A stretch of 64,000 nucleotides of DNA from Escherichia phage vB_EcoS_I14, in sequence record PP892525.1; one strand, written 5' to 3'. The position numbers and the translations under genes are program-made. Numbering within the stretch: the stretch's first letter is position 1; each line of letters starts with the position of its first letter. Positions 13,916-39,443 of this stretch are shown here, piece after piece. Under the pieces are notes generated by a model. It was not told where the DNA came from. It worked only from the letters and a program-made list of their open reading frames with translations, and searched no databases.

Positions 13916-14588
13916 GCTTCAGGGCGGCCTTAACAGCTTCGTTAATCAACGTAATAATTTCTTCACGAGTCCACTTGTACCCTAGAGATTTTACGTCAAC
14001 CCCTAGTTTTTCCAGATGTTTAACAGAAGCCAGCTCGTAATTCATATAATGAACGTTCTGTTGTTTGCCTTCCGATAGAAGCCATACACGGTAACAACCA
14101 ACAGGATTATCCATTGCTTTTTTGATTTCACCGATACACTGGTATCCAGGAACCCAAACAAGCTCACCAACTGCAAATTCTTCTGCTACAGCATCATCAG
14201 GAATAATCGGAGGATTCAATGGATCTACAATATCGTTCAAACGAAGTAGAGCACCATAGCGTTCCAGAACAGATTTAACCATTGCTACAGAGCGGTAATT
14301 ACGATCGGCAATTTCTTCAAAAGAATCACCAGATAAATACTGCTCAATAACGTTAGCTAACTCGATGCCTTCAATAAGTGTGCCACGTTTCTTTTTCTTC
14401 ATTTCGGCAACTTGAATTTGGCGATCTTGCCACTCTTCAATCATCCTTTCCATAGTTGGATTGGATGATACGCCGAGCATTTCACATGCTGCTTTCTTAG
14501 TACCACCGTTCTCCAGATGCTCTATAACCTTTTTAAAGACTTCATCAGGGATTTCATGGATATGTTTCTTTCTACGAGAACCAGCCAT
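13884..14588 (-). CDS. hypothetical protein, possible HTH DNA-binding
   Basis: 234 aa; basic N-terminus and HTH-like segment TKKAACEMLGVSSNPTMERM. Confidence 0.5.
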   Translation of the reverse strand: MAGSRRKKHIHEIPDEVFKKVIEHLENGGTKKAACEMLGVSSNPTMERMIEEWQDRQIQVAEMKKKKRGTLIEGIELANVIEQYLSGDSFEEIADRNYRSVAMVKSVLERYGALLRLNDIVDPLNPPIIPDDAVAEEFAVGELVWVPGYQCIGEIKKAMDNPVGCYRVWLLSEGKQQNVHYMNYELASVKHLEKLGVDVKSLGYKWTREEIITLINEAVKAALKLDKEKGKRRE

Positions 14589-14619
14589 ATTTAAACTCCT
14601 CTCTCAAATTTATAAATCT

Positions 14620-14649
14620 ATTATACAGAAATTTTTTGCACTATGCAAA
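14620..14649 (-). promoter_or_regulatory. sigma70-type early promoter resembling T5 P-N25 (minus strand)
   Basis: Minus strand reads AAAAATTTATTTGCAT...TCTGTATAATAGATTTATAAATTTGAGAGAGGAG, recalled from memory as near-identical to P-N25. Confidence 0.7.
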
Positions 14650-14656
14650 TAAATTT

Positions 14657-14899
14657 TTACGATTCCTTGAGCAAAGAAGCAAGTTCAGCATAGACTTTAT
14701 CTAACTCAAAGCCGATGCGAAGAGACACGTTAGTTTTCCGTTGTTTAAGTAACCACTCGGATATGTTAGGGATGCCAGCTAATCTATGTGGTACCACCCT
14801 ACATAGCTTTTCCGAAGTGTCGTAAACAGGAACTTTACGTTCTTTTACTGGGAACTTCCTTGTTTCCCATTTTTTATTCTTCACTGTCATTTCTAGCAC
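14657..14899 (-). CDS. hypothetical protein
   Basis: 80 aa ORF overlapping the stop of the upstream helicase gene. Confidence 0.4.
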   Translation of the reverse strand: MLEMTVKNKKWETRKFPVKERKVPVYDTSEKLCRVVPHRLAGIPNISEWLLKQRKTNVSLRIGFELDKVYAELASLLKES

Positions 14900-17663
14900 C
14901 TAGCTCTGCCATTGCTTCATCATGCATATGTTTCTCCTCATCAGTCATAAACTTATACGGGATTGGCATACATTCGATTTTACAATAGGTTCTGTACCAG
15001 TCTACAATATTCTCCGTGTTCATATCCTTACCAATACCCATCATACCAAGATACATTCTGGCATATTTTGGGTTAGCACTCTGACCTGTTTTAAGGAAGA
15101 AATCTTTCTTCTTACCTTTCAGAGCTTCTATGAATGGTTTGATAGTGACATTTGAGCACTTCTTAATATCTTCCCAGAACATCTCGTGCATTTTATGGAA
15201 GAATGCCGCTCGATCATTCGGTTTATCCTTGATATACTGCTCAACATGCTCAACTGTTACATCTTTAATAGACTCAAGATGATAATAGCGAACAAGAAGT
15301 AGTTTAGCTTCATACGCATCTGCATGACGTGGAGCACAATAATCAGGAGTTGAATACAAAATAGCTTTGATTCGCTCTTCCGTATATTCTTTTCCTGCAC
15401 CTTCGATAGTTCCCCAGCTTTCACTGAAAATATCAATAGTTGCACCCTGATCAAGCAAGTAATAACGTAAAGTACTAGTATAGTTCCTAGATTCCAGCTC
15501 CCTACGACGTGCGTATAATTGCTGTGCTAACTCCAGCCAACCTTCATCAATGTTATACTGTTCAGAACCTGCGGAGAATCCACTCGTAGATTTATCAATA
15601 AAATAATAAATGTTCTGGGCACCACGGTCGCGCCTGATTGCTTGGAAACGCATGTTTGGCGCTTGGTTGCTAGTTCTAGTAATAACGAATACGTTATCAA
15701 AATAGTTGAAGTCAACACCACTCGTTACGGATGGACTACATAATAAGCAATCAATTTGTTGGTCAATTAACTCATTAGTTGTGTAATCCAGAATACGTCG
15801 AATATCTACATCAGACGTAGAGTTTGAGTGGATTTCCTTAACTAACGCACCCGTATTACGACGCAACGCCATGCCCTTCTCATTCAGTTCATCCGGCCCA
15901 CAGTCAGATACTAGGATAGATTTCTCCCCCATCTCTAGAGATGTCTGAAGCGCAACCCAAATACTGGATTCATCAGGGAACTCATAAGCATGAGCTTTTG
16001 ACAGCATTTTTCGGTGATGATTATAAAATGCAACCGGTTTATCAAACTCAATCAAGGAACCATATGCTTCAATTGTTTCTGCACTAATATCACCATCAGA
16101 TAATATAATGATTTTTGCAGTTGCAAGAATATCCCGAAGAACCTGAATGCATTCACGACGTTGTTTAACAACCGGGGCGAATAGTAGGTCATTCATTACA
16201 GCATCACATTCATCGATAAAGATTGCATCAATTTGACCAATAAAACTCTTGAACTTATGCAAAGAGTGAATAGTTGTGGACATACGGTCAATAGCACCAC
16301 GCTTAAAATTAAGCATATCTACAGACTTATCATATTGTCCTGCACTAAATTTCTTAGCATTTGAAGACACCAGTGCTCTAGTATTGGTAATTGCTAAGAA
16401 ATTACCTTTAATAACTCCCGAATCTAACCAACGCACAACCGCCGTGGTTTTACCTGTACCTAGACTTGCTTTTACAAAAGTCATATAACCTTCTGGTGGC
16501 ACAGTATTTAATTTCAAGAAGTTATCAGTTTCTAGGGAGTTAGTTTCTAGCTTTTTAAGTGGAATACCTTTTAAAACATCAGGTATATCGCGTTTAGAAT
16601 TATTAACAAACGCTTTCAGAGCCTGTTTACGACCGTTATTAAAGTAATCTTGAATATTACGACTATTATCTTTAGTTGCAATATATTCTGATAAGGCTGG
16701 GCGGATTTCTTTTTCTAGCCATGCAAAATCAACACCATCCTCTAAAGCCCTGTGATAGAGTTTAGGAATAATACGTAGATACACTCCATCCTCAGCTTCT
16801 TCTAGTTCGCTGATAGTTTCTTCTACTTTATCAGAGGCAGCTTTTTTACCCTTAATTTGGTCGAGTAAAGAGTAAAACTCCTCCTTAAACTCACCTCTAG
16901 TTGTTTCATAGTCAACCAGATTATTTGGTAAATTTACTTTAGAACCTTTAACAAATACCAGACGTGAAGCACCCTCCGCCTTAAACGGATCTACTATACC
17001 ATCGGTAAATAACGGATCTGCAAAATAATGGAGCTGTACGGAAGAGTAATAAGCTAAGTCGGCAATATCAAAGCCATACTTTTGTCTACTACTTTCGTTG
17101 ATAGATGTAAATAAGAATTTGATTTGACCCTGAGTTACTTTAACATTAGATTCTAGTATTAAGTGCATTCGGATACCTGGTTTTAGCCCAGCCGAAGATG
17201 ATGCATGAGCGATAAACCCTGCATCAAGAGGAAACATATCCTCACTAATACTATTTAACATTCTAATAATATGTCGAGCCATACCAACAAGATCAAACTT
17301 GTTACAACCACCTGTATCTACAATACCATCCACGTCCATTGCAATTATATGACTTGGGTTAGATACATTAAAGTTGCCCTTCTTACGTCGCACATTATTT
17401 TTAGGTGCAAGACATCGACCTCGTACCGCAACGATATGAGGGTCAGACGTTAAACGCCTCATAAGAGGGAGCATTTCTACTAGGGTTTGAGGATCAACTT
17501 CATCAATTACATCAAACTTGAAGGGCATTGAAGCTGGTTTACCTTCAGGATGCTTTGAGGAAAATCTTTTAGCAAAAAGATAGTCTTCTGCTTTAACTTC
17601 TCGCCAAATGCCTGTGGCTAAGTCGCGATGAAATCCTGCATGACCTTGTAGGATTGAGAACAC
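14874..17663 (-). CDS. large replication protein with P-loop helicase domain (origin-binding/initiator helicase-like)
   Basis: Walker A KASLGTGKTT and Walker B IFIDECD; proposed GTG start at 17663 after ACAGGAG; the track ORF runs to 17741. Confidence 0.7.
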   Translation of the reverse strand: MFSILQGHAGFHRDLATGIWREVKAEDYLFAKRFSSKHPEGKPASMPFKFDVIDEVDPQTLVEMLPLMRRLTSDPHIVAVRGRCLAPKNNVRRKKGNFNVSNPSHIIAMDVDGIVDTGGCNKFDLVGMARHIIRMLNSISEDMFPLDAGFIAHASSSAGLKPGIRMHLILESNVKVTQGQIKFLFTSINESSRQKYGFDIADLAYYSSVQLHYFADPLFTDGIVDPFKAEGASRLVFVKGSKVNLPNNLVDYETTRGEFKEEFYSLLDQIKGKKAASDKVEETISELEEAEDGVYLRIIPKLYHRALEDGVDFAWLEKEIRPALSEYIATKDNSRNIQDYFNNGRKQALKAFVNNSKRDIPDVLKGIPLKKLETNSLETDNFLKLNTVPPEGYMTFVKASLGTGKTTAVVRWLDSGVIKGNFLAITNTRALVSSNAKKFSAGQYDKSVDMLNFKRGAIDRMSTTIHSLHKFKSFIGQIDAIFIDECDAVMNDLLFAPVVKQRRECIQVLRDILATAKIIILSDGDISAETIEAYGSLIEFDKPVAFYNHHRKMLSKAHAYEFPDESSIWVALQTSLEMGEKSILVSDCGPDELNEKGMALRRNTGALVKEIHSNSTSDVDIRRILDYTTNELIDQQIDCLLCSPSVTSGVDFNYFDNVFVITRTSNQAPNMRFQAIRRDRGAQNIYYFIDKSTSGFSAGSEQYNIDEGWLELAQQLYARRRELESRNYTSTLRYYLLDQGATIDIFSESWGTIEGAGKEYTEERIKAILYSTPDYCAPRHADAYEAKLLLVRYYHLESIKDVTVEHVEQYIKDKPNDRAAFFHKMHEMFWEDIKKCSNVTIKPFIEALKGKKKDFFLKTGQSANPKYARMYLGMMGIGKDMNTENIVDWYRTYCKIECMPIPYKFMTDEEKHMHDEAMAELGARNDSEE

Positions 17664-18162
17664 AACAATACTCCTGTGTTGGAAATGAAATAAGTTTTCT
17701 TTAGGACTATTCAGAAAGAATAGAACAACTGTTACTGTCAATTTCTCAACAAATTAATTGCAAATACTGAAGTGGGGTGGCAACTTCCACTTTCACGCTA
17801 CACTGCCGCTTCACTATACCGCACAAATCCTTGAGGATGGCCGCTAAGCCAGATTTGCTCACCTAATGCTTCATGTACTAGCTCATACTAGATGTAGTAT
17901 ACCTTACGTCATCACTTCTCAGAGTTTTTCACTCTTCCCGTCTCACTTCACAACCACCTCACACTAGGTTGCTTCGAGGCCTTACCAGGGTTCCTACGGG
18001 ATGTAGATCGCTAAGTATTCTATTAATTATTTGTTTAAAAACTAACACGTAACAGTTAAAACAACCCTTAATGGGGCAGCCTAACTGTTCCGTATCGCGG
18101 ATTGTAAACAAGAAAAATTAGCAAAATCAATTTTTACTAATGTCTCTCAATTCAATATAAAT

Positions 18163-18191
18163 ATTATATCAAGATTTTGGGCATCCTGCAA
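18163..18191 (-). promoter_or_regulatory. sigma70-type promoter preceding a long ORF-free leader (minus strand)
   Basis: Minus strand reads TTGCAG-17bp-TATAAT; about 500 nt without ORFs before the helicase start. Confidence 0.55.
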
Positions 18192-18282
18192 GTAAAATTT
18201 TCCGGACGGTGCTATCATTGGTCTTGAGTACGGATAAAACCGAGCCAAAATGACTCGGTAATCAGAGTTCAGCTAGTAAAAA

Positions 18283-18675
18283 TCATTCATCATTTAGGCC
18301 TGGAACATAGATCCCAACACGGTTTAATTGTTCTTTAGCTTCTTTGAGAATATCTGGAGTGTACTCCCAAATATCATCTTCCACCTGTAAAAGATGGGGC
18401 GAACAACCGTCATCCGGCACACGACATATGGCCAAACCACGTGGATGGAACAAAGAGAAATTTAGGGCAACAATTAAACCCATAGCAGACAATTCATTCC
18501 AATCCAATTCCCATTCCCCCGCGTAGCCGGATAGGAAAACACCAACACAGGGATCATCTATTTGCTGCTCCGGAAAAGTGAGGGAGGCTTGTCTTACCCC
18601 CAACCAACGTTGTAGCAGCTTCTCCGCACGTTTCACCAAACTAGGGTCAATCTGACGCCAATATACTTGTTCCAT
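18283..18675 (-). CDS. hypothetical protein, tandem paralog A
   Basis: 130 aa; shares MGLxxALN(F/Y)xLF and VPGL motifs with the adjacent ORF. Confidence 0.5.
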   Translation of the reverse strand: MEQVYWRQIDPSLVKRAEKLLQRWLGVRQASLTFPEQQIDDPCVGVFLSGYAGEWELDWNELSAMGLIVALNFSLFHPRGLAICRVPDDGCSPHLLQVEDDIWEYTPDILKEAKEQLNRVGIYVPGLNDE

Positions 18676-18684
18676 TCTGCCTCC

Positions 18685-19113
18685 TTAAGCAGTTAAACCT
18701 GGGATCATATACCCGAAACGGCGAAGTTTTTGAATCCCCTCATTTACTTCTTCCGGTGAGTAAGACCAACCATAACGTTCATTAATCTGAAAACCAGGAG
18801 ATTCACTAGTTTTATAGTTAACAACGAGGCGGTGCTTAGCAGGCATAAACAGCTTATAATTTAACGCAAAAACTAAGCCCATTTCGTCTAACTCTTTCCA
18901 GCCCACAATCTCTTCAAGACCATCCTCTACCTGAACAATTAAACCAATACAGGGAGCCTCATCAATATCATCTTTAAAAGCAAAGGAGATTTCGTTATTC
19001 TCACACCATATTTTCAAAGAGTTAATAGCCTCATTATACAGGCTAGCTGGGAGGGTACGCCAAAAGTTAACCAAAATTGGGTTAGCCTCTTTAGAGAAGA
19101 CATTATTAAACAT
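18685..19113 (-). CDS. hypothetical protein, tandem paralog B
   Basis: 142 aa; paralogous to 18283-18675. Confidence 0.5.
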   Translation of the reverse strand: MFNNVFSKEANPILVNFWRTLPASLYNEAINSLKIWCENNEISFAFKDDIDEAPCIGLIVQVEDGLEEIVGWKELDEMGLVFALNYKLFMPAKHRLVVNYKTSESPGFQINERYGWSYSPEEVNEGIQKLRRFGYMIPGLTA

Positions 19114-19115
19114 AT

Positions 19116-19622
19116 TTACACCTTAAATTGTTGTAGGGCTTTACACATTTCAAGATCTGGACTAAATTCTAACATATAGCTAACAGCTTTTAAATCTTGA
19201 AGATTTATTCCAGTCCTACCGTTGACTATAACCGTTGGATACTGATACATCATAGCACCCGCATCATCAAGCACACACCAATGTTTGAGCTTATGCTTTT
19301 CAACGAAGCGAAGAACAGAATTGCCCCTAGATAATCCACCCCCAGTAAAATCCGTTGTACCAAGAAAACGATCGATAAGGCCTAATCCGGTCATAATCTG
19401 AACGTTCTCCATCTCATTTCTGACAGAGAACCAAGATGATACTCCAACAATCATTATCGGAGAAGGACGAATAAAGTCCTGAAAAGCCTTGAGAAGCGGT
19501 TTGAAAACCCAGTCACTTCCAAAGAAAATCTTTTCATTATCAGGTGCATGATGGTGGGAGATGCTCGAATTGAGCACCCCATCAATATCTAGAAAAATAA
19601 TTGGAGTATTACTTATTTCCAT
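19116..19622 (-). CDS. HAD-superfamily phosphatase-like protein (possible nucleotidase)
   Basis: 168 aa; HAD motif I IIFLDIDGVLN near the N-terminus and later VLDD. Confidence 0.6.
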   Translation of the reverse strand: MEISNTPIIFLDIDGVLNSSISHHHAPDNEKIFFGSDWVFKPLLKAFQDFIRPSPIMIVGVSSWFSVRNEMENVQIMTGLGLIDRFLGTTDFTGGGLSRGNSVLRFVEKHKLKHWCVLDDAGAMMYQYPTVIVNGRTGINLQDLKAVSYMLEFSPDLEMCKALQQFKV

Positions 19623-19818
19623 TTTTGTTCCTTTCTAAGAACGTATCATACTCAACCGTATCAACATATATAACACCATAGTCATCGGATTTATAGTCCA
19701 TTTCCCACAGCTCACAGCGATAGCACCAACTACCATCTGCCCATACAAATATATCATCGGGATGTGTATAAACAGATTTAACTATGGACATATCTGTTTC
19801 CCTTGCTTCTCGACACAT
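19609..19818 (-). CDS. hypothetical small protein
   Basis: 69 aa ORF; true start may be the internal Met. Confidence 0.35.
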   Translation of the reverse strand: MCREARETDMSIVKSVYTHPDDIFVWADGSWCYRCELWEMDYKSDDYGVIYVDTVEYDTFLERNKNGNK

Positions 19819-20614
19819 AAGGTCTACCCTCTAAATGAGCTTCTACACGAGCAATAAAATCAGGGTCACTAAAAGCATCTACCGCACCTTTACTCCAGTA
19901 AGGGATACCGCGTTCTTCCAACTGGTACATCTCACTACGAGTCATACCTTGATAGCCCGGTTCTGCTGCGAGGGCACTATCATAGTAGTTAACAACCATA
20001 AGTTTCGCAGCAGTCAAATTAAGAACAGGAAATAATTCCCAGTAGAAGTTAATTACTTGGTTAGAGCAACCAACCACAATGATCATATCTTGACTGGTAA
20101 TACCATCAAAAACATTATACATTTCTGCGTATGCAGGAGCATGTTCTCCAAAGAAGATTACATTAGGTTTAACCCATTTATAATCATCTGGATCAATAGA
20201 ATTATACCCTACATCAATAATCCGTTTATTGCTACTATTGTAGCTATCAGCTACAACAACCTCTTTTAAATATCCGTGAATGTGCAGAATGTCACTATGT
20301 GGAACGCCAGCACGCTCAATAAGGTCATCAACGTTGGTAGTCAAGTTTACTACTTGACCTGGATATTGTTTATACCATTCACCAATACGCAAATGTGCAA
20401 GATTGGGTTCAACAGTTTTTAGCTCTTCACGACGTTTGTTGTAAAACATATGGGTTTTATGGTAAAAATTACCACGAAAGGCATGAATATTACATACTTC
20501 TTCTAGATCATAATCATCCCACAATGCTTTACCACTAGCAGTATCAGTACGAAAAGCTCGTACACCACTTTCAACACTCAAACCTGCACCGCTAATAATA
20601 ATTACCCTACGCAT
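19778..20614 (-). CDS. SIR2-family (sirtuin-like) NAD-binding protein lacking the zinc ribbon
   Basis: 278 aa; sirtuin motifs GAGLSVESGVRAFR, TTNVDDLIERAG, HIHGY, PNVIFFGE, VVGCSN; no CxxC pairs. Confidence 0.65.
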   Translation of the reverse strand: MRRVIIISGAGLSVESGVRAFRTDTASGKALWDDYDLEEVCNIHAFRGNFYHKTHMFYNKRREELKTVEPNLAHLRIGEWYKQYPGQVVNLTTNVDDLIERAGVPHSDILHIHGYLKEVVVADSYNSSNKRIIDVGYNSIDPDDYKWVKPNVIFFGEHAPAYAEMYNVFDGITSQDMIIVVGCSNQVINFYWELFPVLNLTAAKLMVVNYYDSALAAEPGYQGMTRSEMYQLEERGIPYWSKGAVDAFSDPDFIARVEAHLEGRPYVSRSKGNRYVHS

Positions 20615-20828
20615 TTTTCACCTGTTCTCTGAAGTTTTGCCCAATACTGTCTAATAGCTCAGCTAATTCTTTATTGCCTTTCTCCATTAAGGTATTAGCA
20701 ATAACTTCTAGCATAGTAGCACAGGATTCAACACCATCCTTATAGCCAGTTTCCCAGTGCTGCATTAATGCGTTTTCCAAAGCGGAGTTTAAACCCTTAT
20801 CTGGCAGCATCGGCTTCGAGAATGCCAT
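20607..20828 (-). CDS. hypothetical protein
   Basis: 73 aa ORF. Confidence 0.4.
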   Translation of the reverse strand: MAFSKPMLPDKGLNSALENALMQHWETGYKDGVESCATMLEVIANTLMEKGNKELAELLDSIGQNFREQVKNA

Positions 20829-21000
20829 AAAGTTTCTCCTCTAGTTCCATAACACGATTTTCATAAGAGGCACGCAACTTTTCAATTGCTAGCGCACGCA
20901 CTGTAACCTCATTAGAATTAATAGCTAATTGGGCCAGATCTTCTGTTTCCATACGTCCGTTGTAAATTAAGCGATATTTAAGATGTTTTACGTTTTTCAT
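20797..21000 (-). CDS. hypothetical protein
   Basis: 67 aa ORF. Confidence 0.4.
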   Translation of the reverse strand: MKNVKHLKYRLIYNGRMETEDLAQLAINSNEVTVRALAIEKLRASYENRVMELEEKLYGILEADAAR

Positions 21001-21009
21001 TCTTGTTCC

Positions 21010-21291
21010 TTAGTTCTGTACTGTAAATTCATTCTTATCACAGTGAGCATAATAATACCCGTACATACGATAAATTTTCACAGCCTTAGTAGACCCCTTC
21101 GATTCTTCATAATCGATCCAGAGCCACTTGTCTTTACCTACATAGTGTACCCGAAACTTCTTAACCTTCTTATCATTCCATGTTGCAACAACACGACGAT
21201 AATCAAATCCACCCAACCAATCTAGAGCCTTACGTTCTTCACTAGGCTCTCCAAGATGGGAGACATCTACTTTAGGAAGCAACTCGCTCAT
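21010..21291 (-). CDS. hypothetical protein
   Basis: 93 aa ORF downstream of promoter 21320-21348. Confidence 0.45.
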   Translation of the reverse strand: MSELLPKVDVSHLGEPSEERKALDWLGGFDYRRVVATWNDKKVKKFRVHYVGKDKWLWIDYEESKGSTKAVKIYRMYGYYYAHCDKNEFTVQN

Positions 21292-21319
21292 AGCTTTCTC
21301 CTATCAAATTTATAAATCT

Positions 21320-21348
21320 ATTATATATAAATTTTTGGCTGAAAGCAA
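21320..21348 (-). promoter_or_regulatory. sigma70-type early promoter resembling T5 P-N25 (minus strand)
   Basis: Minus strand reads TTTATTTGCTTTCAG...TATAATAGATTTATAAATTTGATAGGAG. Confidence 0.7.
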
Positions 21349-21390
21349 ATAAAATAAAAGCCAGGTCGACTAGCAACCCGGCTGATTAGC

Positions 21391-23265
21391 TTATTTAGCT
21401 CGAATATCCTGATGTTTCACCCTGCCCATAACCTCATGCTGTTTGCCTGGGTTAAATGGACGAGCACCTGGATTTCCAAGATACCCACAAACTCGACGAG
21501 TTACTTCAAGAGTTTCAGGGTCATGATTACCACAGATAGGGCACTTAAACCCATCTTCGGATGCTATTGTTTCACCTAAGAATCCACATTTACCACAAGA
21601 ATCCACTGGAGTATTAATACCGAAGTAATGAACCTTACTAGCAGCATAATTAATAACCCATTCCAGTGCATCTGGGAATCGTTTCATATCCGGTAGTTCT
21701 ACATAGGAAATACACCCACCAGAAGCAATCGGAGTAAAGTTAGATTCATAATCAAATTTGACGTTAGGAGCAACTTTACGTTCCACATCAAGGTGGTGCG
21801 AGTTAGTGTAGTATCCTTTAGACAGAATATCTTCATGCTCTGGGAAATATTCACGGTCTAGACGACAAAAACGATCACATAGGGATTCTGATGGTGTAGC
21901 ATACAGGCTATAACCTAACTTAGTTTCTTCCTTCTTCTGATCGACTCTATCCCGCATGTACTGCAATACACGCTGAACAAACTTGATGCAGGTCTCGGAC
22001 ATTGTGTCTACATCTTTGCCAAACATGAACTGTAGCATTTCATGGCAACCAATATACCCTAGAGATACAGAAGCACGGTTATAGAAATGATCGAATACAT
22101 ATTCATCAGGCTCCAAGCGTAAACCAAAGGCTCCTGACATATAGAGGATAGGTGCAGCTTTAGCTTGGATGTATTTTAAGCGATCAACTCTCCACTCCAA
22201 TGCTTTTAACGCTGTATCCACACGTAGCTCAAGCAAATCAAAGAATAGATCAATATTTCCTTCAGCTTCGATAGCAATTCTAGGCAAGTTTACAGAAACA
22301 ACACCTAAGTTATTACGACCGGCAGTTTCACCATCTTCTGTAGCAGCTAAGAATGAACGACAGCCCATAGAAACTTTATAGTCTCCAGTAACTTCCACAA
22401 CCTTATCATAGCTGATATAATCTGGATACATACGTTCAGCAGTACATTTCATAGCTAACTTCTTGATGTCATAATTAACATCCCCTGGTTTCATATTTAC
22501 GCCATCACGAAGTACAAATACCAGTTTCGGGAAGATAGCTGTACGTTTATTGATACCTAAACCATCCATGCGTACTTTGAGTATTGCTTTCTGTACTAGA
22601 CGTGCTTCCCAAGAAGTTCCCAGACCAAAGCCAAAGGTAATAAATGGACTCTGACCATTAGAGTTGAACATGGTATTGATTTCATATTCTAGACCCTGAC
22701 AGGCATCATAAACTTCTTTTTCAGTCATCTCCGTAGCCATTACTGATGCTTTGGCCTCATCCTTAGTCCAACGTTTTGCAAACGCATGATTTTTGTCATA
22801 GGATTTACGAACATAAGGAGCTAATACTTCATCAAGGCGATCCACGGAAGTACCACCATACTGATGGGAACTAACCTGTGTGATAATCTGAGCTGTAATA
22901 GCCGCCGCAGTAGTGATAGAGTTTGGAGTGCTAATTTCAGCATTACCAACCTTCATACCATTCTTCAACATATCTTCCAGAGCTACCAGACAACAGTTAG
23001 TCATGCCTAATGCAGCATAATCAGCATCATGGAAATGAATATCCCCAATCATATGAGCATTTCGAATCTGAATTGGCATTTCTTCTAGAATCAGATACTT
23101 ACTCAATTCACCTGCAAGCATATCCCTTTGTGTAGGGAAACGTTCTGAGGGTTTATTGGCATTATTAAACAGCAGTTCTTCATCTGCTGACCCTTCGATA
23201 ATCTCTTTGCAGTTTCTAATTAACGCCTGCATTCCTTTATACTTTAGTTCTTCATTGCGATTCAT
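21391..23265 (-). CDS. nrdD: anaerobic ribonucleoside-triphosphate reductase (class III)
   Basis: 624 aa; C-terminal glycyl-radical motif RVCGYLG; zinc ribbon CGKCG...CPICG. Confidence 0.95.
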   Translation of the reverse strand: MNRNEELKYKGMQALIRNCKEIIEGSADEELLFNNANKPSERFPTQRDMLAGELSKYLILEEMPIQIRNAHMIGDIHFHDADYAALGMTNCCLVALEDMLKNGMKVGNAEISTPNSITTAAAITAQIITQVSSHQYGGTSVDRLDEVLAPYVRKSYDKNHAFAKRWTKDEAKASVMATEMTEKEVYDACQGLEYEINTMFNSNGQSPFITFGFGLGTSWEARLVQKAILKVRMDGLGINKRTAIFPKLVFVLRDGVNMKPGDVNYDIKKLAMKCTAERMYPDYISYDKVVEVTGDYKVSMGCRSFLAATEDGETAGRNNLGVVSVNLPRIAIEAEGNIDLFFDLLELRVDTALKALEWRVDRLKYIQAKAAPILYMSGAFGLRLEPDEYVFDHFYNRASVSLGYIGCHEMLQFMFGKDVDTMSETCIKFVQRVLQYMRDRVDQKKEETKLGYSLYATPSESLCDRFCRLDREYFPEHEDILSKGYYTNSHHLDVERKVAPNVKFDYESNFTPIASGGCISYVELPDMKRFPDALEWVINYAASKVHYFGINTPVDSCGKCGFLGETIASEDGFKCPICGNHDPETLEVTRRVCGYLGNPGARPFNPGKQHEVMGRVKHQDIRAK

Positions 23266-23294
23266 TATACCCTCCTTCTCTAACTAAGACTACT

Positions 23295-23323
23295 ATTATA
23301 ACTCATTCGAAGGCGGATGTCAA
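23295..23323 (-). promoter_or_regulatory. consensus sigma70 promoter upstream of nrdD (minus strand)
   Basis: Minus strand reads TTGACA-17bp-TATAAT (perfect consensus hexamers). Confidence 0.7.
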
Positions 23324-23374
23324 CAATATTTTACTATAAAGTTCTATAACATGATCTGAGTCAAAAAATTTTAT

Positions 23375-23403
23375 TTGCCAACCTCTACTAAAAATAGTAT
23401 AAT
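23375..23403 (+). promoter_or_regulatory. sigma70-type promoter (distal, divergent region)
   Basis: TTGCCA-17bp-TATAAT with A/T-rich upstream. Confidence 0.6.
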
Positions 23404-23515
23404 CACGCACCCGTGTACGCGATATAAAATGATTATCTAGTACCATACATCTCCCAATAAAAGCAAGCAAATTTTTTATTTAAATGCAATATCATAGGCT
23501 TATTTAAAATTGTAG

Positions 23516-23544
23516 TTGCTTTCTCCCGTATATATTGGTATAAT
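23516..23544 (+). promoter_or_regulatory. sigma70-type early promoter upstream of phoH
   Basis: TTGCTT-17bp-TATAAT with AAAATT upstream tract. Confidence 0.7.
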
Positions 23545-23617
23545 ATATTTGTAAGTTGATAAACAAGATCTTTTTGTTGATCCTCTGTTAGCGAAGTACA
23601 CTATAGGAGTGTTATTT

Positions 23618-24370
23618 ATGGGAAAAGCACGTCAAAAAAGAGAGAACCGCAATGGTTCAAGAAAGCGTGGCAACAAGTACGAGAGTAACGTAATTCAAGC
23701 AGATTTCTCTGGTGATTACGCCAATCCAGTTGCTAAATCCCTAGTTGGTAAAAACCGTGAGCAAAAATCATATATCAATATGATCAAGAACAACACAGTG
23801 ACTGTGGGTATCGGTGAACCAGGTACTGGTAAAACCTTTATCCCGTCCGTTCTTGCAGCTCAGGAACTCGTAGACATTCACTCAGATATTGAGCAAGTGA
23901 TCCTCGTGCGTCCGAACGAACCTCTAGGTAAATCTCTTGGTATGCTCCCAGGTGATCTAGCAGAAAAGCTAGAGCCTTGGTTGGAACCAATAGCCGATGG
24001 CATGAAATGGGCAATCGGTGATCACGCCTATAAAGGATATGTCGAACGTCAGAAAATCAAATTCCTGGCTATCGAACATGCCCGTGGCCGAACTTTCAAC
24101 AACTCCTATGTAATTGTCGATGAAGCTCAGAATATTTCCGTTGAGGCAATGATTTGTCTTCTAACTCGTGTAGGGCAAGACTGCCGTTTAATTATCTGCG
24201 GAGATATAGCTCAGAAAGACATTAAAGGTGACTCAGGTCTAGCACTCCTTATGGAAGTCTATGAGAAATACGAAAATGCCCCATTCTCAATGATCGAATT
24301 GATTGATAACGTTCGTTCTGTTGAGTCTAAAGCATTCTATGACATCTTTAAAGACATGGGGAAGGTGTAA
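23618..24370 (+). CDS. phoH: PhoH-like ATPase
   Basis: Walker A GEPGTGKTF; HARGRT; DEAQN; ATG 23618 after AGGAG. Confidence 0.85.
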   Translation: MGKARQKRENRNGSRKRGNKYESNVIQADFSGDYANPVAKSLVGKNREQKSYINMIKNNTVTVGIGEPGTGKTFIPSVLAAQELVDIHSDIEQVILVRPNEPLGKSLGMLPGDLAEKLEPWLEPIADGMKWAIGDHAYKGYVERQKIKFLAIEHARGRTFNNSYVIVDEAQNISVEAMICLLTRVGQDCRLIICGDIAQKDIKGDSGLALLMEVYEKYENAPFSMIELIDNVRSVESKAFYDIFKDMGKV

Positions 24371-36293: not shown

Positions 36294-36368
36294 AATACTT
36301 AAACGGGGTGTAGTCTAATGGAGAGGCAGGAGTCTTCTAAATTCCTTTATGCAGGTTCGAATCCTGTC
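36294..36368 (+). tRNA. tRNA-Arg(TCT), tentative
   Basis: Acceptor CGGGGTG/CACCTCG; anticodon stem GGAGT/ATTCC, loop CTTCTAA; T-arm GCAGG-TTCGAAT-CCTGT; CCA encoded; short D-arm. Confidence 0.55.
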
Positions 36369-36412
36369 ACCTCGGCCAATTTTATTAACTGTAACTAAAA
36401 CAAAGGAAACAT

Positions 36413-37360
36413 ATGTTTAATACTAAAAATATGAAAGAATTGACTTCTGAGCAGAAAGTAATTCGTACTATTAAACGTTGGGGTATTGGTGCTATAGTTG
36501 GTTTAGCAGGTTTAATCCTAGCTTTTAATTCGTATACCATTGTTTCTGATGGTACGGTTAAAACCCAAACATTCCTGGGTAAAGTAGACCCTAATCCAGT
36601 ATTACCTGGTTTCCATCTTGTAAACCCGTTTGCATCTTTCGATACTTTTAGTACAAAAGATATTGCTGTAAAATTAGATAAACTTCAGGTTCCTAGCCAG
36701 GATAAGTTTAAATCCACTGTTGACCTGACTGTTATGTTGCAGTTTGATGGTTCTAAGGCACCAATTAACCGTATTAACGCAGGTACTCAGGATCAAGCGT
36801 TAGACAAGTATGTAACTGAAAAATTACTGTCTACTATTCGTGAGTTTGGTAAGTCTGTACCTAAAGCACAAGATTTGTTTGATGCTAAAATTCAGGCTCA
36901 ATTGCAAACCGCAATTCAACAAGAAGTTGAAGAGTATGCACGCCCATATGGTTACACAGTTAAGCAGGTATTCCTTCAGGATATTACTCTACCACCAGTA
37001 ATCATGGAACAGGTACAGAATACCAAAGTTCGTGAAGAGCAAGTTAATGCTGCGAAAGCTGAATTGGCTCGTGTTGAACAGGAAGCACAGCAAAAAGTTA
37101 AACAAGCAGAAGCAGATCGTGAAGCTCGCAACAACCAAGCTATTGCTAATGAACGTGACGCAGATGCTAAACTGTACGCAGCTAAGAAAGAAGCTGAAGC
37201 TAACGCCGCACTGCAACGTACCATTACTCCTGAGATGATTCGTTGGAAACAACTGGAAGTTGAGATGATTCGTGCTCAGAAATATCAAGGTGGTGTACCG
37301 CAGACTGTGGTTGGCACTGGCTATGATGGCCAAATGATTATGGATATGCGTAATAAATAA
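36413..37360 (+). CDS. SPFH/band-7 (prohibitin/HflKC-like) membrane protein
   Basis: 315 aa; N-terminal TM segment, SPFH-like core, Ala/Glu/Gln-rich coiled coil. Confidence 0.7.
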   Translation: MFNTKNMKELTSEQKVIRTIKRWGIGAIVGLAGLILAFNSYTIVSDGTVKTQTFLGKVDPNPVLPGFHLVNPFASFDTFSTKDIAVKLDKLQVPSQDKFKSTVDLTVMLQFDGSKAPINRINAGTQDQALDKYVTEKLLSTIREFGKSVPKAQDLFDAKIQAQLQTAIQQEVEEYARPYGYTVKQVFLQDITLPPVIMEQVQNTKVREEQVNAAKAELARVEQEAQQKVKQAEADREARNNQAIANERDADAKLYAAKKEAEANAALQRTITPEMIRWKQLEVEMIRAQKYQGGVPQTVVGTGYDGQMIMDMRNK

Positions 37361-37383
37361 TACCCGCACGTAACATCTGAAGT

Positions 37384-37419
37384 GAGCCCTGCGTTCCCTG
37401 GAGAGCGCAGGGCTTTTCT
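37384..37419 (+). terminator. intrinsic terminator after the SPFH gene
   Basis: GAGCCCTGCG...CGCAGGGCT hairpin followed by TTTT. Confidence 0.7.
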
Positions 37420-37456
37420 ATATAATGTATTTGTAAATCTAACTAGGAGATCAAAT

Positions 37457-37975
37457 ATGAATGTTGATGAGCTAATACAGCACCTCTTATCTAGGGGATT
37501 TGATACAGATAAATATCATTGCTGGTTAAGTCCGGAAGGATGGCTAACAGTCCCGTTGTATGACTTCTCTGGGATGTTGAGAGGCTATCAGACTTATAAT
37601 CCTTCTGCTCCCAAAAGGCAGGGTAAGTGCCCATTTGAAGCTAAATATTTTACCCATTCTACTACACAGTGTGTATGGGGGCTAGAAACTCTCAATGGAG
37701 ATGAAAAAGTAGTATTGATTGCTGAATCTGTATTTAAGGCAGTTGCGTTACATAACGCTGGTTATCCCGCCCTAGCAATGTTGGGTTCTTCTCCGGGAAA
37801 AGCATTATTAAAGCAACTGAAATTACTACCTTTTAAATTGATAGCTATTGGTGACAATGATCCCGATGGTGAAAAATTTGCTAGAAAATTAAACGGCTTT
37901 GTTTCTCCCGTAGATGTGGATGAGATGTCTACCGAAAACTTGAAAAATTTTCTTGCTATGAAGCTAAATTTCTAA
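37457..37975 (+). CDS. hypothetical protein with Toprim-like motifs
   Basis: ATG 37457 after AGGAGA; VVLIAESVF and IAIGDNDPDGEKFA; the track ORF starts at 37382 inside the terminator. Confidence 0.45.
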   Translation: MNVDELIQHLLSRGFDTDKYHCWLSPEGWLTVPLYDFSGMLRGYQTYNPSAPKRQGKCPFEAKYFTHSTTQCVWGLETLNGDEKVVLIAESVFKAVALHNAGYPALAMLGSSPGKALLKQLKLLPFKLIAIGDNDPDGEKFARKLNGFVSPVDVDEMSTENLKNFLAMKLNF

Positions 37976-37981
37976 TATAAT
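37953..37981 (+). promoter_or_regulatory. sigma70-type promoter upstream of tRNA-Ser
   Basis: TTGCTA-17bp-TATAAT; -35 lies in the 3' end of CDS 37457-37975. Confidence 0.65.
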
Positions 37982-37994
37982 ATATCTTATAAAT

Positions 37995-38085
37995 TCGGAA
38001 GAATAGCATAACGGTATTGCAGCAGATTGCTAATCTGTCGGTTTGAAATATAGCCTTGTGGGTTCGATTCCCACTTCTTCCGCCA
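37995..38085 (+). tRNA. tRNA-Ser(GCT), type II
   Basis: Acceptor GGAAGAA/TTCTTCC; anticodon loop TTGCTAA; long variable arm; T-loop GTTCGATTC; CCA encoded. Confidence 0.7.
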
Positions 38086-38091
38086 GATTTT

Positions 38092-38169
38092 GGTTCTCAA
38101 GCTCATATGGTATGAGCACCCGGCTCATAACCGGAAGGTACGTAGGTTCGAATCCTCGGGGAGCCACCA
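38092..38169 (+). tRNA. tRNA with CAT anticodon (Met or Ile2), tentative
   Basis: Acceptor GGTTCTC/GGGAGCC; D-stem GCTC/GAGC; anticodon loop CTCATAA; T-stem has two mismatches; CCA encoded. Confidence 0.5.
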
Positions 38170-38385
38170 ATTAAATAGAGGTCACAAATGGATCTATATA
38201 TATAGTTTATGTTGTGTTTATCCAAGATAGAGAATACCCGGATGAATATAAAAAAGGATATAGGTTAGCCAGAGCTACTTCTGAAGCCCAAGCTATGGAT
38301 AAAGTGGCAGATTATATGATTACAGTAGAAAACGTACACTATATCGACTACCTTGAAGCCTCAAAAGTAATTGACTAAACTACAT

Positions 38386-38462
38386 GGGGGTGTAATCGAA
38401 TTGGCATAGGTACTGGACTTAAAATTCAGGTTTTGTGGGTTCGAATCCCACCACCCCTACCA
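38386..38462 (+). tRNA. tRNA, anticodon tentatively TAA (Leu)
   Basis: Acceptor GGGGGTG/CACCCCT; T-arm GTGGG-TTCGAAT-CCCAC; CCA encoded; D-arm unclear. Confidence 0.5.
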
Positions 38463-38477
38463 AATTAAGGAAATAAG

Positions 38478-38645
38478 ATGTATAGACATCCACCTCCGCC
38501 AACACGTCGTTCTAGAGAAGTTATCCTCATGGAATTAACTAAAAACTTCAAGGCAACTCTTGAAGATAGAGATCTAGGCACGGATGAAGACATTGATTTT
38601 ATTTGTAGACTACTAAAGATGAAACTGGAGAAACAACATGGCTAA
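38478..38645 (+). CDS. hypothetical small protein
   Basis: 55 codons from ATG 38478; not in the ORF track. Confidence 0.3.
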   Translation: MYRHPPPPTRRSREVILMELTKNFKATLEDRDLGTDEDIDFICRLLKMKLEKQHG

Positions 38646-38844: not shown

Positions 38845-38874
38845 CTCCTCCAAACAGAATTTTTAAAAATGTAC

Positions 38875-38904
38875 TTGCCTTTTGCTTTAAATTTCTGATA
38901 TAAT
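38875..38904 (+). promoter_or_regulatory. sigma70-type early promoter
   Basis: TTGCCT-18bp-TATAAT, then TATAAATTGATGAAGGAG. Confidence 0.65.
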
Positions 38905-39426: not shown

Positions 39427-39443
39427 AATTAAAGGTAAAGGAT

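What the first reader, a model, noticed from the sequence alone, without database searches (positions are those of the whole stretch)
18283..20614. Zinc-less SIR2-like protein clustered with a HAD-like phosphatase and a tandem paralog pair
ORF 19778-20614 carries the core sirtuin motifs (GAGLSVESGVRAFR, TTNVDDLIERAG, HIHGY, PNVIFFGE, VVGCSN) but no CxxC zinc-ribbon cysteines, the architecture seen in SIR2 NADase-type enzymes rather than classical deacetylases. Directly downstream are a HAD-motif protein (IIFLDIDGVLN) and two paralogous small ORFs. A phage SIR2-like enzyme with a phosphatase partner could act on NAD+ or ADP-ribose during host takeover or as a counter-defence; this is a hypothesis, not a demonstrated function.
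Basis: partly seen in the sequence, partly recalled or inferred. Interest (0 to 1): 0.7.

Follow-up and report, generated by a model that had tools for sequence, protein, structure and literature searches.

The report
T5-phage zinc-less sirtuin and HAD phosphatase operon
This is the long-annotated Sir2-like gene of T5-type phages with its neighbouring small phosphatase and two duplicated genes of unknown function; the gene pairing was described in 2022, and what it does has never been tested.

Summary
The window is a T5-like phage (Tequintavirus, 97.7% identical to Salmonella phage HMD-7). Window 18283-20614 (minus strand) holds the orthologues of T5.102 and T5.104-T5.107:
- a sirtuin (Pfam SIR2, 8e-25);
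- a 60-aa ORF;
- a capless HAD_SAK_2 phosphatase (7e-20);
- two tandem DUF7415 paralogues.

The lack of zinc cysteines is real. All 58 aligned relatives have only 0-2 Cys in the ribbon region.

The "NADase-type architecture" reading is not supported. Sequence and predicted fold sit closest to E. coli CobB and SIRT5. The ribbon strands are still predicted. The catalytic His, the NAD pocket and CobB's Tyr92/Arg95 pair are invariant. No defence-SIR2 model matches.

The sirtuin plus "Swiss-army-knife" HAD neighbourhood of T5-like phages was already described by Iyer et al. 2022, who proposed Tpt1/KptA-like RNA 2'-phosphate removal. I found support for that. In other phages, both the sirtuin and HAD relatives lie beside RNA ligase, kinase, cREC and metallophosphoesterase genes.

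Against it: T5-likes encode no detectable ligase, kinase or cREC, and the sirtuin is acidic. Phage Shivani has lost the sirtuin and the HAD active site and is still viable.

DUF7415 has no known fold match and no demonstrated link to the sirtuin. Already known; moderate-to-low interest.

The parts
21359..21383 (-). Terminator-like hairpin plus T-run just after nrdD; upstream boundary of the operon
   Evidence: 10-bp stem, 6 GC pairs, tail TTTATTTTAT. The T5 record annotates a terminator and then a promoter at the same place, between nrdD and T5.100.
21010..21291 (-). Small ORF (93 aa), first gene of the unit; unknown function
   Evidence: phrog_7953, E 9e-66. No Pfam hit. 99% identical in phage SuperGirl. 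No match found in T5.
20797..21000 (-). Small ORF (67 aa), unknown function
   Evidence: phrog_5236, E 8e-46. No Pfam hit.
20607..20828 (-). Small ORF (73 aa), unknown function; its end overlaps the sirtuin start by 8 nt
   Evidence: phrog_5827. Only 36% identical in SuperGirl, so it diverges together with the sirtuin. Its N-terminus is fused to the HAD remnant in the Shivani deletion.
19778..20614 (-). Zinc-less CobB/SIRT5-like sirtuin (278 aa), orthologue of T5.102
   Evidence: Pfam SIR2 8e-25. PDB sequence best hit CobB 1s5p, 8e-18. AF2 pLDDT 89. Foldseek best hit CobB, TM 0.85. Invariant GAG-S, F21 R22, Y58 R61, T93-N-V-D96, H113, FGE. No Cys4 set.
19609..19791 (-). Small acidic ORF (60 aa from the ATG at 19791; the listed ORF extends to 19818), orthologue of T5.104; overlaps both neighbours by 14 nt
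   Evidence: phrog_5116, 9e-30. 98% identical to the T5 copy. Retained next to the sirtuin in Klebsiella phage Roth50.
19116..19622 (-). Capless HAD phosphatase of the HAD_SAK_2 family (168 aa), orthologue of T5.105
   Evidence: PF18143, 7e-20. Motifs D12-x-D14, S62-S63-W, G94-G-G..R99-G and D120 are invariant in distant relatives. No PDB sequence relative.
18685..19113 (-). DUF7415 protein, paralogue A (142 aa), orthologue of T5.106
   Evidence: PF24187, 9e-35, two matched stretches. phrog_2502.
18283..18675 (-). DUF7415 protein, paralogue B (130 aa), orthologue of T5.107
18236..18259 (-). Hairpin (ACCGAG / CTCGGT) followed by a short T-run, 24 nt after the last stop codon; probable operon terminator
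   Evidence: Read from the sequence. The T5 record annotates a rho-independent terminator at the equivalent position after T5.107. The consensus scan did not report it.

Best explanation
The interval is the distal part of an early operon of a T5-like phage, equivalent to T5.100-T5.107. The operon lies between nrdD and the origin-binding/primase gene.

Shown:
- It encodes a member of a phage-specific sirtuin clade related to class III sirtuins (CobB/SIRT5). The clade has lost the four zinc cysteines. It keeps the ribbon strands, the NAD+ pocket, the catalytic His113, and the Tyr58/Arg61 pair. In CobB and SIRT5 that pair binds an anionic group on the substrate (established knowledge for those enzymes, not tested here).
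- Next come a 60-aa ORF and a capless HAD_SAK_2 phosphatase with an intact catalytic motif set.
- Last come two tandem paralogues built on the DUF7415 domain.

Inferred mechanism:
- The sirtuin uses NAD+ to transfer ADP-ribose onto an anionic acceptor. Most likely this is a 2'-phosphate on cleaved or re-ligated RNA, so the reaction would parallel Tpt1/KptA. [quoted passage not shown]
- The HAD would remove a terminal phosphate, either from the RNA end or from the ADP-ribose-phosphate by-product.
- Together they would form an accessory RNA-end-healing module. It would be useful when host ribonucleases cut tRNA or mRNA, and it would rely on host ligase.

The module is dispensable for growth under laboratory conditions. 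Whether the DUF7415 pair takes part is unknown.
For: - Family and fold of the sirtuin.
- Conserved residues in 58 relatives, including Y58/R61 aligned to CobB Y92/R95.
- Sirtuin neighbours in other phage lineages, checked with Pfam. In Salmonella phage SSE121 and in L092/L093 they are metallophosphoesterase, RNA_lig_T4_1, cREC_REC, AAA_33 kinase, then the sirtuin, then MazG. In Serratia phage BF they are a 2H phosphoesterase, then the sirtuin, then a Nudt16-like Nudix fused to cREC.
- HAD relatives, independently. In IMG/VR loci L040/41/50/51 a HAD_SAK_2 (3e-27) lies 2-3 kb from a metallophosphoesterase + RNA ligase + kinase cassette. In L038 it is directly followed by cREC_REC. In six further loci it lies near the same metallophosphoesterase family.
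- So the sirtuin and the HAD each link separately to the same set of RNA-end-processing partners, and in T5-likes they are linked to each other. The sirtuin was present in 16 of 17 T5-like loci.
- Tight gene overlaps and flanking terminators indicate one transcription unit.
- The same proposal was made from comparative genomics by Iyer et al. 2022 (PMC9503650, section 3.7.3).
- The two-step sirtuin and Tpt1 chemistries are formally parallel (Tpt1 mechanism as summarised in PMC11417386; the parallel is my inference).
Against: - No experiment exists for any member of this sirtuin clade (literature searches).
- The window and T5 0-75 kb encode no detectable RNA ligase, polynucleotide kinase, cREC or 2H protein. 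A T5-type pathway would therefore be incomplete.
- The sirtuin-HAD adjacency is confined to one lineage whose whole genome is syntenic. None of 60 non-T5-like HAD loci has a sirtuin within 10 kb. Klebsiella T5-like phage Roth50 keeps the sirtuin and the DUF7415 pair but has no HAD.
- The sirtuin clade is acidic (median pI 5.2), which is unusual for an RNA-binding enzyme.
- Every retained catalytic feature fits an ordinary protein deacylase equally well.
- T4-type Rnl1 ligation leaves no 2'-phosphate (established knowledge).
- My attempt to find KptA occupying the sirtuin's position next to cREC in other phages found nothing.
Confidence: 0.38

Rival explanations
1. Ordinary protein lysine deacylase. 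The phage sirtuin is a diverged CobB that removes acetyl or succinyl-type groups from host or phage proteins during takeover. An example would be re-activating acetyl-CoA synthetase or other acyl-regulated enzymes. The HAD and DUF7415 genes are merely neighbours.
For: - The closest sequence and fold relatives are CobB, Sir2Af1 and SIRT5.
- The full deacylase catalytic set and the class III Tyr/Arg pair are invariant.
- An acidic pI is compatible with a protein substrate.
- This reading was proposed for the zinc-less Vibrio phage homologue (PMC5107563).
- HAD and sirtuin occur apart in most lineages.
Against: - Scores are far below the CobB equivalog cut-offs (100 bits against 243-320).
- Clade-wide changes sit in substrate-facing elements: loss of the zinc cysteines, Q to T in the QNID motif, and VYP replaced by V-I-N-F after GxS.
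- Repeated embedding among RNA ligase, kinase, cREC and 2H genes is not expected for a protein deacylase.
- The host already has CobB (established knowledge).
Confidence: 0.3
2. The sirtuin is an NAD+ glycohydrolase or an ADP-ribose-directed enzyme used for host takeover or as a counter-defence. The HAD acts on a phosphorylated NAD/ADP-ribose derivative.
For: - In jumbo and rV5-like phages the sirtuin lies near NAD+ salvage genes: NAMPT, NMNAT and ribose-phosphate pyrophosphokinase.
- In Serratia phage BF it lies next to a 2H protein that matches the Pfam Acb1 (anti-CBASS) family at 3.6e-15.
- All sirtuins consume NAD+ (established knowledge).
Against: - No similarity to any defence-type SIR2 NADase model (PADLOC), and only the classical SIR2 Pfam family is hit.
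- The substrate-binding FGE loop and the Tyr/Arg pair are invariant. That argues for transfer to a bound acceptor rather than to water.
- T5 depends on NAD+ for its own NAD-dependent DNA ligase (ligA/ligB), so wholesale NAD+ destruction would be self-harming.
- The window contains no macro, NADAR or NARP genes among the ORFs I tested.
Confidence: 0.12
3. A small-molecule nucleotide-metabolism module. The sirtuin acts as a (phospho)ribosyl or ADP-ribosyl transferase on a small-molecule base or nucleotide, recalling CobB's reported ability to substitute for CobT. The HAD acts as the nucleotidase that finishes the product. DUF7415 proteins act as adaptor or regulatory subunits of nucleotide enzymes.
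For: - The operon sits in the nucleotide-metabolism block: nrdD, nrdA/B, thy, frd.
- In other phages the DUF7415 domain is fused to thymidylate kinase and to MazZ-like dATP/dGTP pyrophosphohydrolase.
- MazG, Nudix and a nucleotide-type kinase neighbour the sirtuin elsewhere.
- The CobB/CobT link is cited in PMC9503650.
Against: - No candidate substrate can be named.
- The HAD family is defined by its RNA-repair context (Pfam HAD_SAK_2) and neighbours RNA ligase and cREC.
- DUF7415 is also fused to ASCH/DUF3850 and occurs alone in many contexts, so its fusions are not specific.
Confidence: 0.1

Closest known systems
Phage sirtuin clade with 'Swiss-army-knife' HAD neighbour (Escherichia phage SP15 type), Iyer, Burroughs, Anantharaman and Aravind 2022, Viruses 14:1977 (PMC9503650)
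   Same: This is the same thing: a T5-like phage with the sirtuin gene in a conserved neighbourhood with a HAD_SAK-type phosphatase. Phage SP15's DUF7415 protein appears among the homologues found here (P0151).
   Different: Nothing differs at the level of sirtuin and HAD. The passages I read do not mention the DUF7415 pair, the small ORFs, the Tyr/Arg pair or the natural deletion. The proposed function there is a prediction only.
Bacteriophage T5 genes T5.102 (Sir2-like), T5.105, T5.106, T5.107
   Same: Orthologues at 95%, 99%, 92% and 95% protein identity, in the same order, with the same flanking terminators.
   Different: The window lacks T5.103, and its sirtuin is 6 residues longer. RefSeq mislabels T5.105 (the HAD) as 'Sir2'.
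E. coli CobB / human SIRT5 (class III sirtuins, NAD+-dependent protein deacylases)
   Same: Rossmann fold plus small domain. GAGxS, F/R, N-x-D, catalytic His and FGE are all present. Tyr/Arg pair equivalent to CobB Y92/R95. Best fold match, TM 0.85.
   Different: No zinc cysteines. TQNID is replaced by TTNVD. The loop after GxS is altered. There is an extra C-terminal segment of about 60 residues. About 24% identity, far below NCBIfam equivalog cut-offs. The substrate is unknown.
Zinc-less Sir2/CobB of Vibrio phages KVP40, phiSt2 and phiGrn1 (Skliros et al. 2016, PMC5107563)
   Same: Same phage clade (35-41% identity). The absence of the zinc ligand was already noted there, with T5 named as carrying a homologue.
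   Different: Those phages pair the sirtuin with NAD+ salvage genes rather than with a HAD. The authors favoured protein deacetylation.
Defence-type SIR2 NADases (ThsA, DSR1/2, SIR2-HerA, SIR2-pAgo; the 'SIRim' subfamily)
   Same: SIR2 superfamily, NAD+ as substrate, no zinc-cysteine module.
   Different: No sequence match to PADLOC models. None appears among the 50 best PDB fold matches listed. No sensor or partner domain. The sirtuin-type small domain and substrate loop are retained.
Tpt1/KptA RNA 2'-phosphotransferase
   Same: Proposed functional analogue: NAD+-dependent, two-step chemistry, associated with RNA ligase and cyclic-phosphodiesterase genes.
   Different: Unrelated fold (ART superfamily). 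The analogy rests on gene context only. No activity data exist.
T4 polynucleotide kinase-phosphatase (HAD-type 3'-phosphatase domain) and HAD_SAK_2 (PF18143)
   Same: DxD-type HAD phosphatase motifs. The family is found in RNA-repair contexts, and relatives here neighbour RNA ligase, kinase and cREC genes.
   Different: Stand-alone 168-aa capless protein with no fused kinase or ligase. No solved relative detectable by sequence.

Membership tests
Sirtuin / SIR2 (Pfam PF02146) | Profile match above the gathering threshold across the whole domain | tested here: met
   88.2 bits against a cut-off of 24, profile positions 1-178 of 180.
Sirtuin / SIR2 (Pfam PF02146) | NAD+-binding GAGxS, F-R, N-x-D motifs and the catalytic His | tested here: met
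   G9 A10 G11 S13, F21 R22, N94 D96 and H113 are invariant in 58 relatives and align to the CobB equivalents.
Sirtuin / SIR2 (Pfam PF02146) | Sirtuin fold: Rossmann domain plus small domain | tested here: met
   AF2 pLDDT 89. Foldseek best hit CobB 1s5p, E 3e-17, TM 0.85.
Sirtuin / SIR2 (Pfam PF02146) | Cys4 zinc-binding module in the small domain | tested here: not met
   No Cys between H113 and E157; 0-2 Cys in all 58 relatives. The strands of the module are still predicted.
Class III sirtuin (CobB/SIRT5 type) | Tyr-x-x-Arg pair that recognises acidic acyl groups | tested here: met
   FYNKRR aligns with CobB FYNARR, giving Y58=Y92 and R61=R95. The pair is invariant.
Class III sirtuin (CobB/SIRT5 type) | Score above the NCBIfam CobB equivalog or subfamily cut-offs | tested here: not met
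   Best score 100.9 bits against a cut-off of 243.
Class III sirtuin (CobB/SIRT5 type) | NAD+-dependent lysine deacylase activity | not testable with these tools
   Requires an enzyme assay.
Defence-type SIR2 NADase (ThsA/DSR/SIR2-HerA; Pfam SIR2_2) | Match to SIR2_2 or to PADLOC defence SIR2 models | tested here: not met
   Only PF02146 is reported at E up to 0.1. There are no PADLOC hits.
Defence-type SIR2 NADase (ThsA/DSR/SIR2-HerA; Pfam SIR2_2) | Fused or adjacent sensor/partner (SLOG, HerA, pAgo, TIR, long DSR repeats) | tested here: not met
   The protein is a single 278-aa domain. Its neighbours are the HAD, DUF7415 proteins and small ORFs.
HAD_SAK_2 phosphatase (PF18143) | Profile match above the gathering threshold | tested here: met
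   72.2 bits against a cut-off of 27.5, profile positions 1-138 of 139.
HAD_SAK_2 phosphatase (PF18143) | HAD motifs I (DxD), II (S/T), III (K/R) and IV (acidic pair) | tested here: met
   D12-I-D14, S62-S63, R99 and D119-D120. Invariant or conservatively kept (E/D) in relatives of 32-33% identity.
HAD_SAK_2 phosphatase (PF18143) | Association with RNA-repair enzymes | tested here: inconclusive
   Met for distant relatives: RNA ligase + kinase + metallophosphoesterase in L040, cREC in L038. Not met in T5-likes, which lack those genes.
Sirtuin-centred phage RNA-repair neighbourhood (Iyer et al. 2022, type 3) | Phage-clade sirtuin adjacent to a SAK-type HAD in a T5-like phage | tested here: met
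   (16 of 17 T5-like loci).
Sirtuin-centred phage RNA-repair neighbourhood (Iyer et al. 2022, type 3) | Actual RNA 2'-phosphate removal or end healing | not testable with these tools
   Requires biochemistry. No published test was found.
DUF7415 (PF24187) | Profile match above the gathering threshold | tested here: met
   119 and 106 bits against a cut-off of 27, two matched stretches in each protein.

The most novel reading that the evidence does not exclude
The phage sirtuin clade is not a protein deacylase. It would be the first sirtuin that works on nucleic acid, carrying out Tpt1-like NAD+-dependent removal of RNA 2'-phosphate. The invariant class III Tyr/Arg pair would be re-purposed to hold the phosphate, and the HAD_SAK_2 phosphatase would clean the remaining phosphate. 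The result would be a portable two-gene RNA-end-healing kit that T5-like phages use against RNA-cleaving host defences. This idea is already published as a prediction. Only the residue-level rationale and the independent HAD-to-RNA-repair links are added here.
Probability: 0.3. Interest if true: 0.7.

Novelty: already known. Interest (0 to 1): 0.3.

Why it matters
Homologues of this sirtuin occur in more than 1000 sequenced phage genomes: T5-like, rV5-like, KVP40-like and jumbo phages. No member has been characterised biochemically. If the clade really performs Tpt1-like chemistry, that would extend sirtuin enzymology from protein acyl groups to RNA phosphates. It would also add an NAD+-dependent repair arm to the phage response to RNA-cleaving defences. 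If it is a plain deacylase, it would be a case of a phage rewriting host protein acylation. Either way, this window adds no new gene or arrangement. Its value is as a well-conserved, genetically tractable (T5, BASEL collection), non-essential test case.

Tried and rejected
1. Defence-type SIR2 NADase. Rejected: there are no PADLOC or SIR2_2 matches, and the fold is closest to CobB.
2. Sirtuin or DUF7415 near HAD relatives outside T5-likes. Looked for and not found: 0 of 60 IMG/VR loci.
3. KptA taking the sirtuin's place next to cREC in other phages. A cREC-seeded scan gave only 13 loci. Pfam on ten cREC neighbours returned superoxide dismutase, helicases and DUFs. The test was uninformative.
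4. RNA ligase, PNK-type kinase, cREC, 2H and metallophosphoesterase homologues in the window and in T5 0-75 kb. Single-sequence phmmer found none. T5 75-122 kb was not searched.
6. Internal duplication of DUF7415 proteins. Pfam reports two stretches per protein. My self-alignment score (31) was only about 2 sd above shuffles, so I do not claim it independently.
7. Structured RNA in 14000-24000. There were no Rfam matches at E up to 0.1.
8. Literature on any tested function of T5 Sir2, phage sirtuins or DUF7415. Nothing experimental was found in the held library.
Full report
**What the window is.** The 3.4-kb block around the finding is 97.7% identical to Salmonella phage HMD-7 and is found in 531 phage records, nearly all T5-like. 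Annotated relatives are Tequintavirus, family Demerecviridae. The genes here are the minus-strand orthologues of T5 genes. The sirtuin is 95% identical in protein to T5.102. The 60-aa ORF matches T5.104 (98%). The HAD matches T5.105 (99%). The DUF7415 proteins match T5.106 (92%) and T5.107 (95%). The surroundings are the T5 early region: nrdD upstream, the origin-binding/primase gene downstream, and NAD-dependent ligase and replication genes further on.

**Checking the observation.**
- The 278-aa protein matches Pfam SIR2 over the whole profile (E 8e-25).
- The 168-aa protein matches HAD_SAK_2, described by Pfam as the 'HAD domain in Swiss Army Knife RNA repair proteins' (E 7e-20).
- The two small ORFs both match DUF7415 and are paralogues of each other (about 30% identity, phmmer 1e-16).
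- The sirtuin has two cysteines in all and none in the ribbon region. Across 58 relatives of 50-97% identity that region carries 0-2 Cys and never four.

The lack of zinc ligands is a property of the whole clade, not a local oddity.

A terminator-like hairpin follows nrdD. A second hairpin with a T-run follows the last DUF7415 gene (read). Both coincide with terminators annotated in the T5 record, which also places a promoter before T5.100. Gene ends overlap by 8-14 nt. The eight genes therefore look like one early transcription unit.

**What kind of sirtuin.**
- The best solved relatives by sequence are E. coli CobB (8e-18), the archaeal Sir2Af proteins and SIRT5.
- An AlphaFold model built from the 58-sequence alignment is confident (pLDDT 89, pTM 0.87). 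Its best PDB fold matches are again CobB (TM 0.85 on the target), Sir2Af1 and SIRT5.
- Three strands (114-122, 131-134, 147-152) are predicted with high confidence where the zinc ribbon normally lies. The module is retained without its metal ligands.
- Invariant positions include G9-A-G11, S13, F21-R22, N94, D96, H113-G114, F154-F155 and E157. They also include Y58 and R61.
- In the HMMER alignment FYNKRR lines up with CobB FYNARR. Using mutant names in the 6rx* entries to fix the numbering offset, Y58 equals CobB Y92 and R61 equals CobB R95. It is established knowledge for CobB and SIRT5 that this pair recognises the carboxylate of succinyl- or malonyl-lysine.
- Differences that hold across the clade: TQNID becomes TTNVD (T93 invariant), the loop after GxS is altered, and there is an extra C-terminal helical segment.
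- NCBIfam hits are all CobB-type, but at 100 bits against cut-offs of 220-395. PADLOC defence models give nothing.
- The 'NADase-type architecture' inference is therefore not supported. This is a diverged classical sirtuin. It does not belong to the immune SIR2 branch that Bonhomme et al. separate from classical sirtuins (as reported in PMC12254948).

**What was already known.**
- T5.102 has been annotated as Sir2-like in the T5 record.
- Skliros et al. 2016 noted that the Sir2/CobB proteins of Vibrio phages KVP40 and phiSt2 lack the zinc ligand, and listed T5 as carrying a homologue (PMC5107563).
- Iyer, Burroughs, Anantharaman and Aravind 2022 state that most viral sirtuins form a distinct clade. 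They describe three conserved neighbourhoods. [quoted passage not shown] They propose KptA-like removal of RNA 2'-phosphates (PMC9503650, section 3.7.3).
- SP15 is a T5-like phage, and its DUF7415 protein turned up among my homologues.
- I found no experimental follow-up and no paper mentioning DUF7415.

**Independent test of the neighbourhood argument.** tblastn finds the sirtuin in 1007 phage records. I checked neighbours with Pfam.
- In Salmonella phage SSE121 (Vequintavirinae) the order is metallophosphoesterase, HNH, Rnl1-type RNA ligase, cREC_REC, AAA_33 kinase, sirtuin, ATP-dependent DNA ligase, two unknowns, then MazG-like. NAMPT and ribose-phosphate pyrophosphokinase lie nearby. Two IMG/VR contigs show the same set.
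- In Serratia jumbo phage BF the order is NMNAT, NAMPT, a 2H phosphoesterase (which also matches Pfam Acb1), sirtuin, then a Nudt16-like Nudix fused to cREC.

I then seeded an IMG/VR scan with the HAD.
- Among 77 loci, the 17 T5-like ones all carry the HAD plus two DUF7415 genes, and 16 also carry the sirtuin.
- None of the 60 other loci has a sirtuin or a DUF7415 gene within 10 kb.
- Those distant HAD_SAK_2 genes nevertheless sit beside the same partner set. Four loci have a metallophosphoesterase + RNA_lig_T4_1 + AAA_33 kinase cassette 2-3 kb away. One locus has a cREC_REC gene immediately downstream. Six more loci have the same metallophosphoesterase family nearby.

Sirtuin and HAD thus each connect separately to one set of RNA-end-processing genes, and to each other only in T5-likes. 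This is the strongest evidence I can add for the RNA-end-healing reading.

**Evidence that cuts the other way.**
- The window and T5 0-75 kb contain no detectable RNA ligase, PNK-type kinase, cREC or 2H gene. A T5 pathway would have to borrow host enzymes.
- T5-like genomes are syntenic throughout, so adjacency within this one lineage carries little weight.
- Klebsiella T5-like phage Roth50 keeps the sirtuin, the small ORF and two DUF7415 genes but has no HAD.
- The sirtuin clade is acidic (median pI 5.2).
- Salmonella phage Shivani carries a deletion of about 1.5 kb. It fuses the first 25 codons of the 73-aa ORF in frame to HAD residue 65. That removes the sirtuin, the small ORF and the HAD DxD nucleophile, and leaves the DUF7415 pair. 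Its genome paper notes the missing Sir2-like gene (PMC4342426). Sirtuin and HAD are therefore dispensable for propagation, and they were lost together.
- All conserved catalytic features are equally compatible with protein deacylation.

**The DUF7415 pair.**
- An exhaustive profile search finds 276 clusters. The conserved core is about 55 residues (profile positions 56-110). Most members are proteins of 60-200 aa.
- A few members are fusions: to thymidylate kinase, to a MazZ-like dATP/dGTP pyrophosphohydrolase (two clusters), and to DUF3850/ASCH.
- A stand-alone copy sits near a family-B DNA polymerase with no sirtuin or HAD nearby.
- The proteins are acidic (pI about 4.6).
- I conclude that DUF7415 is a small, promiscuous, phage-specific domain associated with nucleotide and nucleic-acid enzymes. 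Its function is unknown. Nothing beyond T5-lineage synteny ties it to the sirtuin.

**Mechanism and verdict.**
- Shown: the gene identities, the conserved catalytic residues, the operon organisation, the distribution, the dispensability and the neighbourhood network.
- Inferred: the sirtuin transfers ADP-ribose from NAD+ to an anionic acceptor.
- I favour the published RNA 2'-phosphate (Tpt1-like) model, with the HAD as the companion phosphatase (confidence about 0.38).
- A CobB-like protein deacylase comes next (about 0.30).
- The NADase/counter-defence reading (about 0.12) and a small-molecule nucleotide module (about 0.10) are less likely.
- The finding is real and correctly located. However, the gene has long been annotated and the pairing is already described. 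This copy is 95-99% identical to known phages. I rate it 'already known', interest 0.3. The remaining value is that the function of a very widespread phage sirtuin clade is still untested.

Noticed in passing
window 19116-19622 (and T5.105, NC_005859 57588-58094): Propagated annotation error. The HAD phosphatase is labelled 'Sir2 (NAD-dependent deacetylase)' in RefSeq and Pharokka-type records. The cause is the 92-position PHROG profile phrog_18062, named Sir2, which matches the HAD C-terminus at 4e-58 and the true sirtuin only at 2e-6. This explains the 'Sir2 x2' rows.
   Followed up: yes
window 18283-19113: The DUF7415 genes carry contradictory names in public records: 'tail tube protein', 'exonuclease', 'Phage exonuclease (ACLAME 70)'. 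No Pfam match or fold match supports any of these names.
   Followed up: partly
window 19609-20828, compared with L004 (Escherichia phage SuperGirl): Mosaic segment. The 73-aa ORF, the sirtuin and the 60-aa ORF are only 36%, 52% and 53% identical to SuperGirl. The flanks are 87-99% (nrdD, two small ORFs) and 90-91% (HAD, origin-binding protein). Two divergent sirtuin alleles circulate among T5-likes. The allele in this window is closer to those of rV5-like phages (about 62%) than to the other T5-like allele.
   Followed up: partly
L091 (Salmonella phage Shivani KP143763, 53848-54237) and L029 9917-10315: Natural in-frame deletion. It fuses the N-terminus of the 73-aa ORF to HAD residue 65. It removes the sirtuin, the small ORF and the HAD catalytic DxD motif, and leaves the DUF7415 pair intact.
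   Followed up: yes
L010 (Klebsiella phage Roth50) 5001-6762: This T5-like Klebsiella phage has the sirtuin, the small ORF and two DUF7415 genes but no HAD gene. Only 3 Klebsiella phage records have a HAD hit, against 131 with a sirtuin hit.
   Followed up: partly
P0242, P0282, P0284, P0234 (DUF7415 relatives): The roughly 55-residue DUF7415 core occurs fused to thymidylate kinase, to MazZ-like dATP/dGTP pyrophosphohydrolase (PF04447) and to DUF3850/ASCH. This suggests an adaptor or regulatory domain for nucleotide enzymes.
   Followed up: partly
L040 6502-10492; L038 9995-10920: Uncultured phage contigs in which a HAD_SAK_2 gene lies close to other RNA-end-processing genes. In L040 it lies 2-3 kb from a metallophosphoesterase + Rnl1-type RNA ligase + AAA_33 kinase cassette. 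In L038 it is directly followed by a cREC_REC gene.
   Followed up: yes
L006 (Serratia phage BF) 7281-7727: The 2H phosphoesterase directly upstream of the jumbo-phage sirtuin matches the Pfam Acb1 (anti-CBASS) family at 3.6e-15. NAMPT and NMNAT lie a few kb upstream. This neighbourhood could equally be read as an anti-defence island.
   Followed up: no
window 36304-46942, plus strand: A cluster of 24 tRNA genes, interspersed with HNH, T5orf172 and Toprim-like ORFs. This is the T5 tRNA region.
   Followed up: no
window 17742-18282: A 540-bp intergenic gap between the operon terminator and the origin-binding/primase gene. It contains promoter-like sites and has no Rfam match. An equivalent gap exists in T5.
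   Followed up: partly
window 56620-57495 and 57784-58374: Two calcineurin-like metallophosphoesterases, orthologous to T5.035/T5.034 (a NinI-like Ser/Thr phosphatase and a phosphoesterase). phmmer with the RNA-repair-cassette metallophosphoesterase of phage SSE121 did not detect them.
   Followed up: no
[not shown]
   Followed up: no
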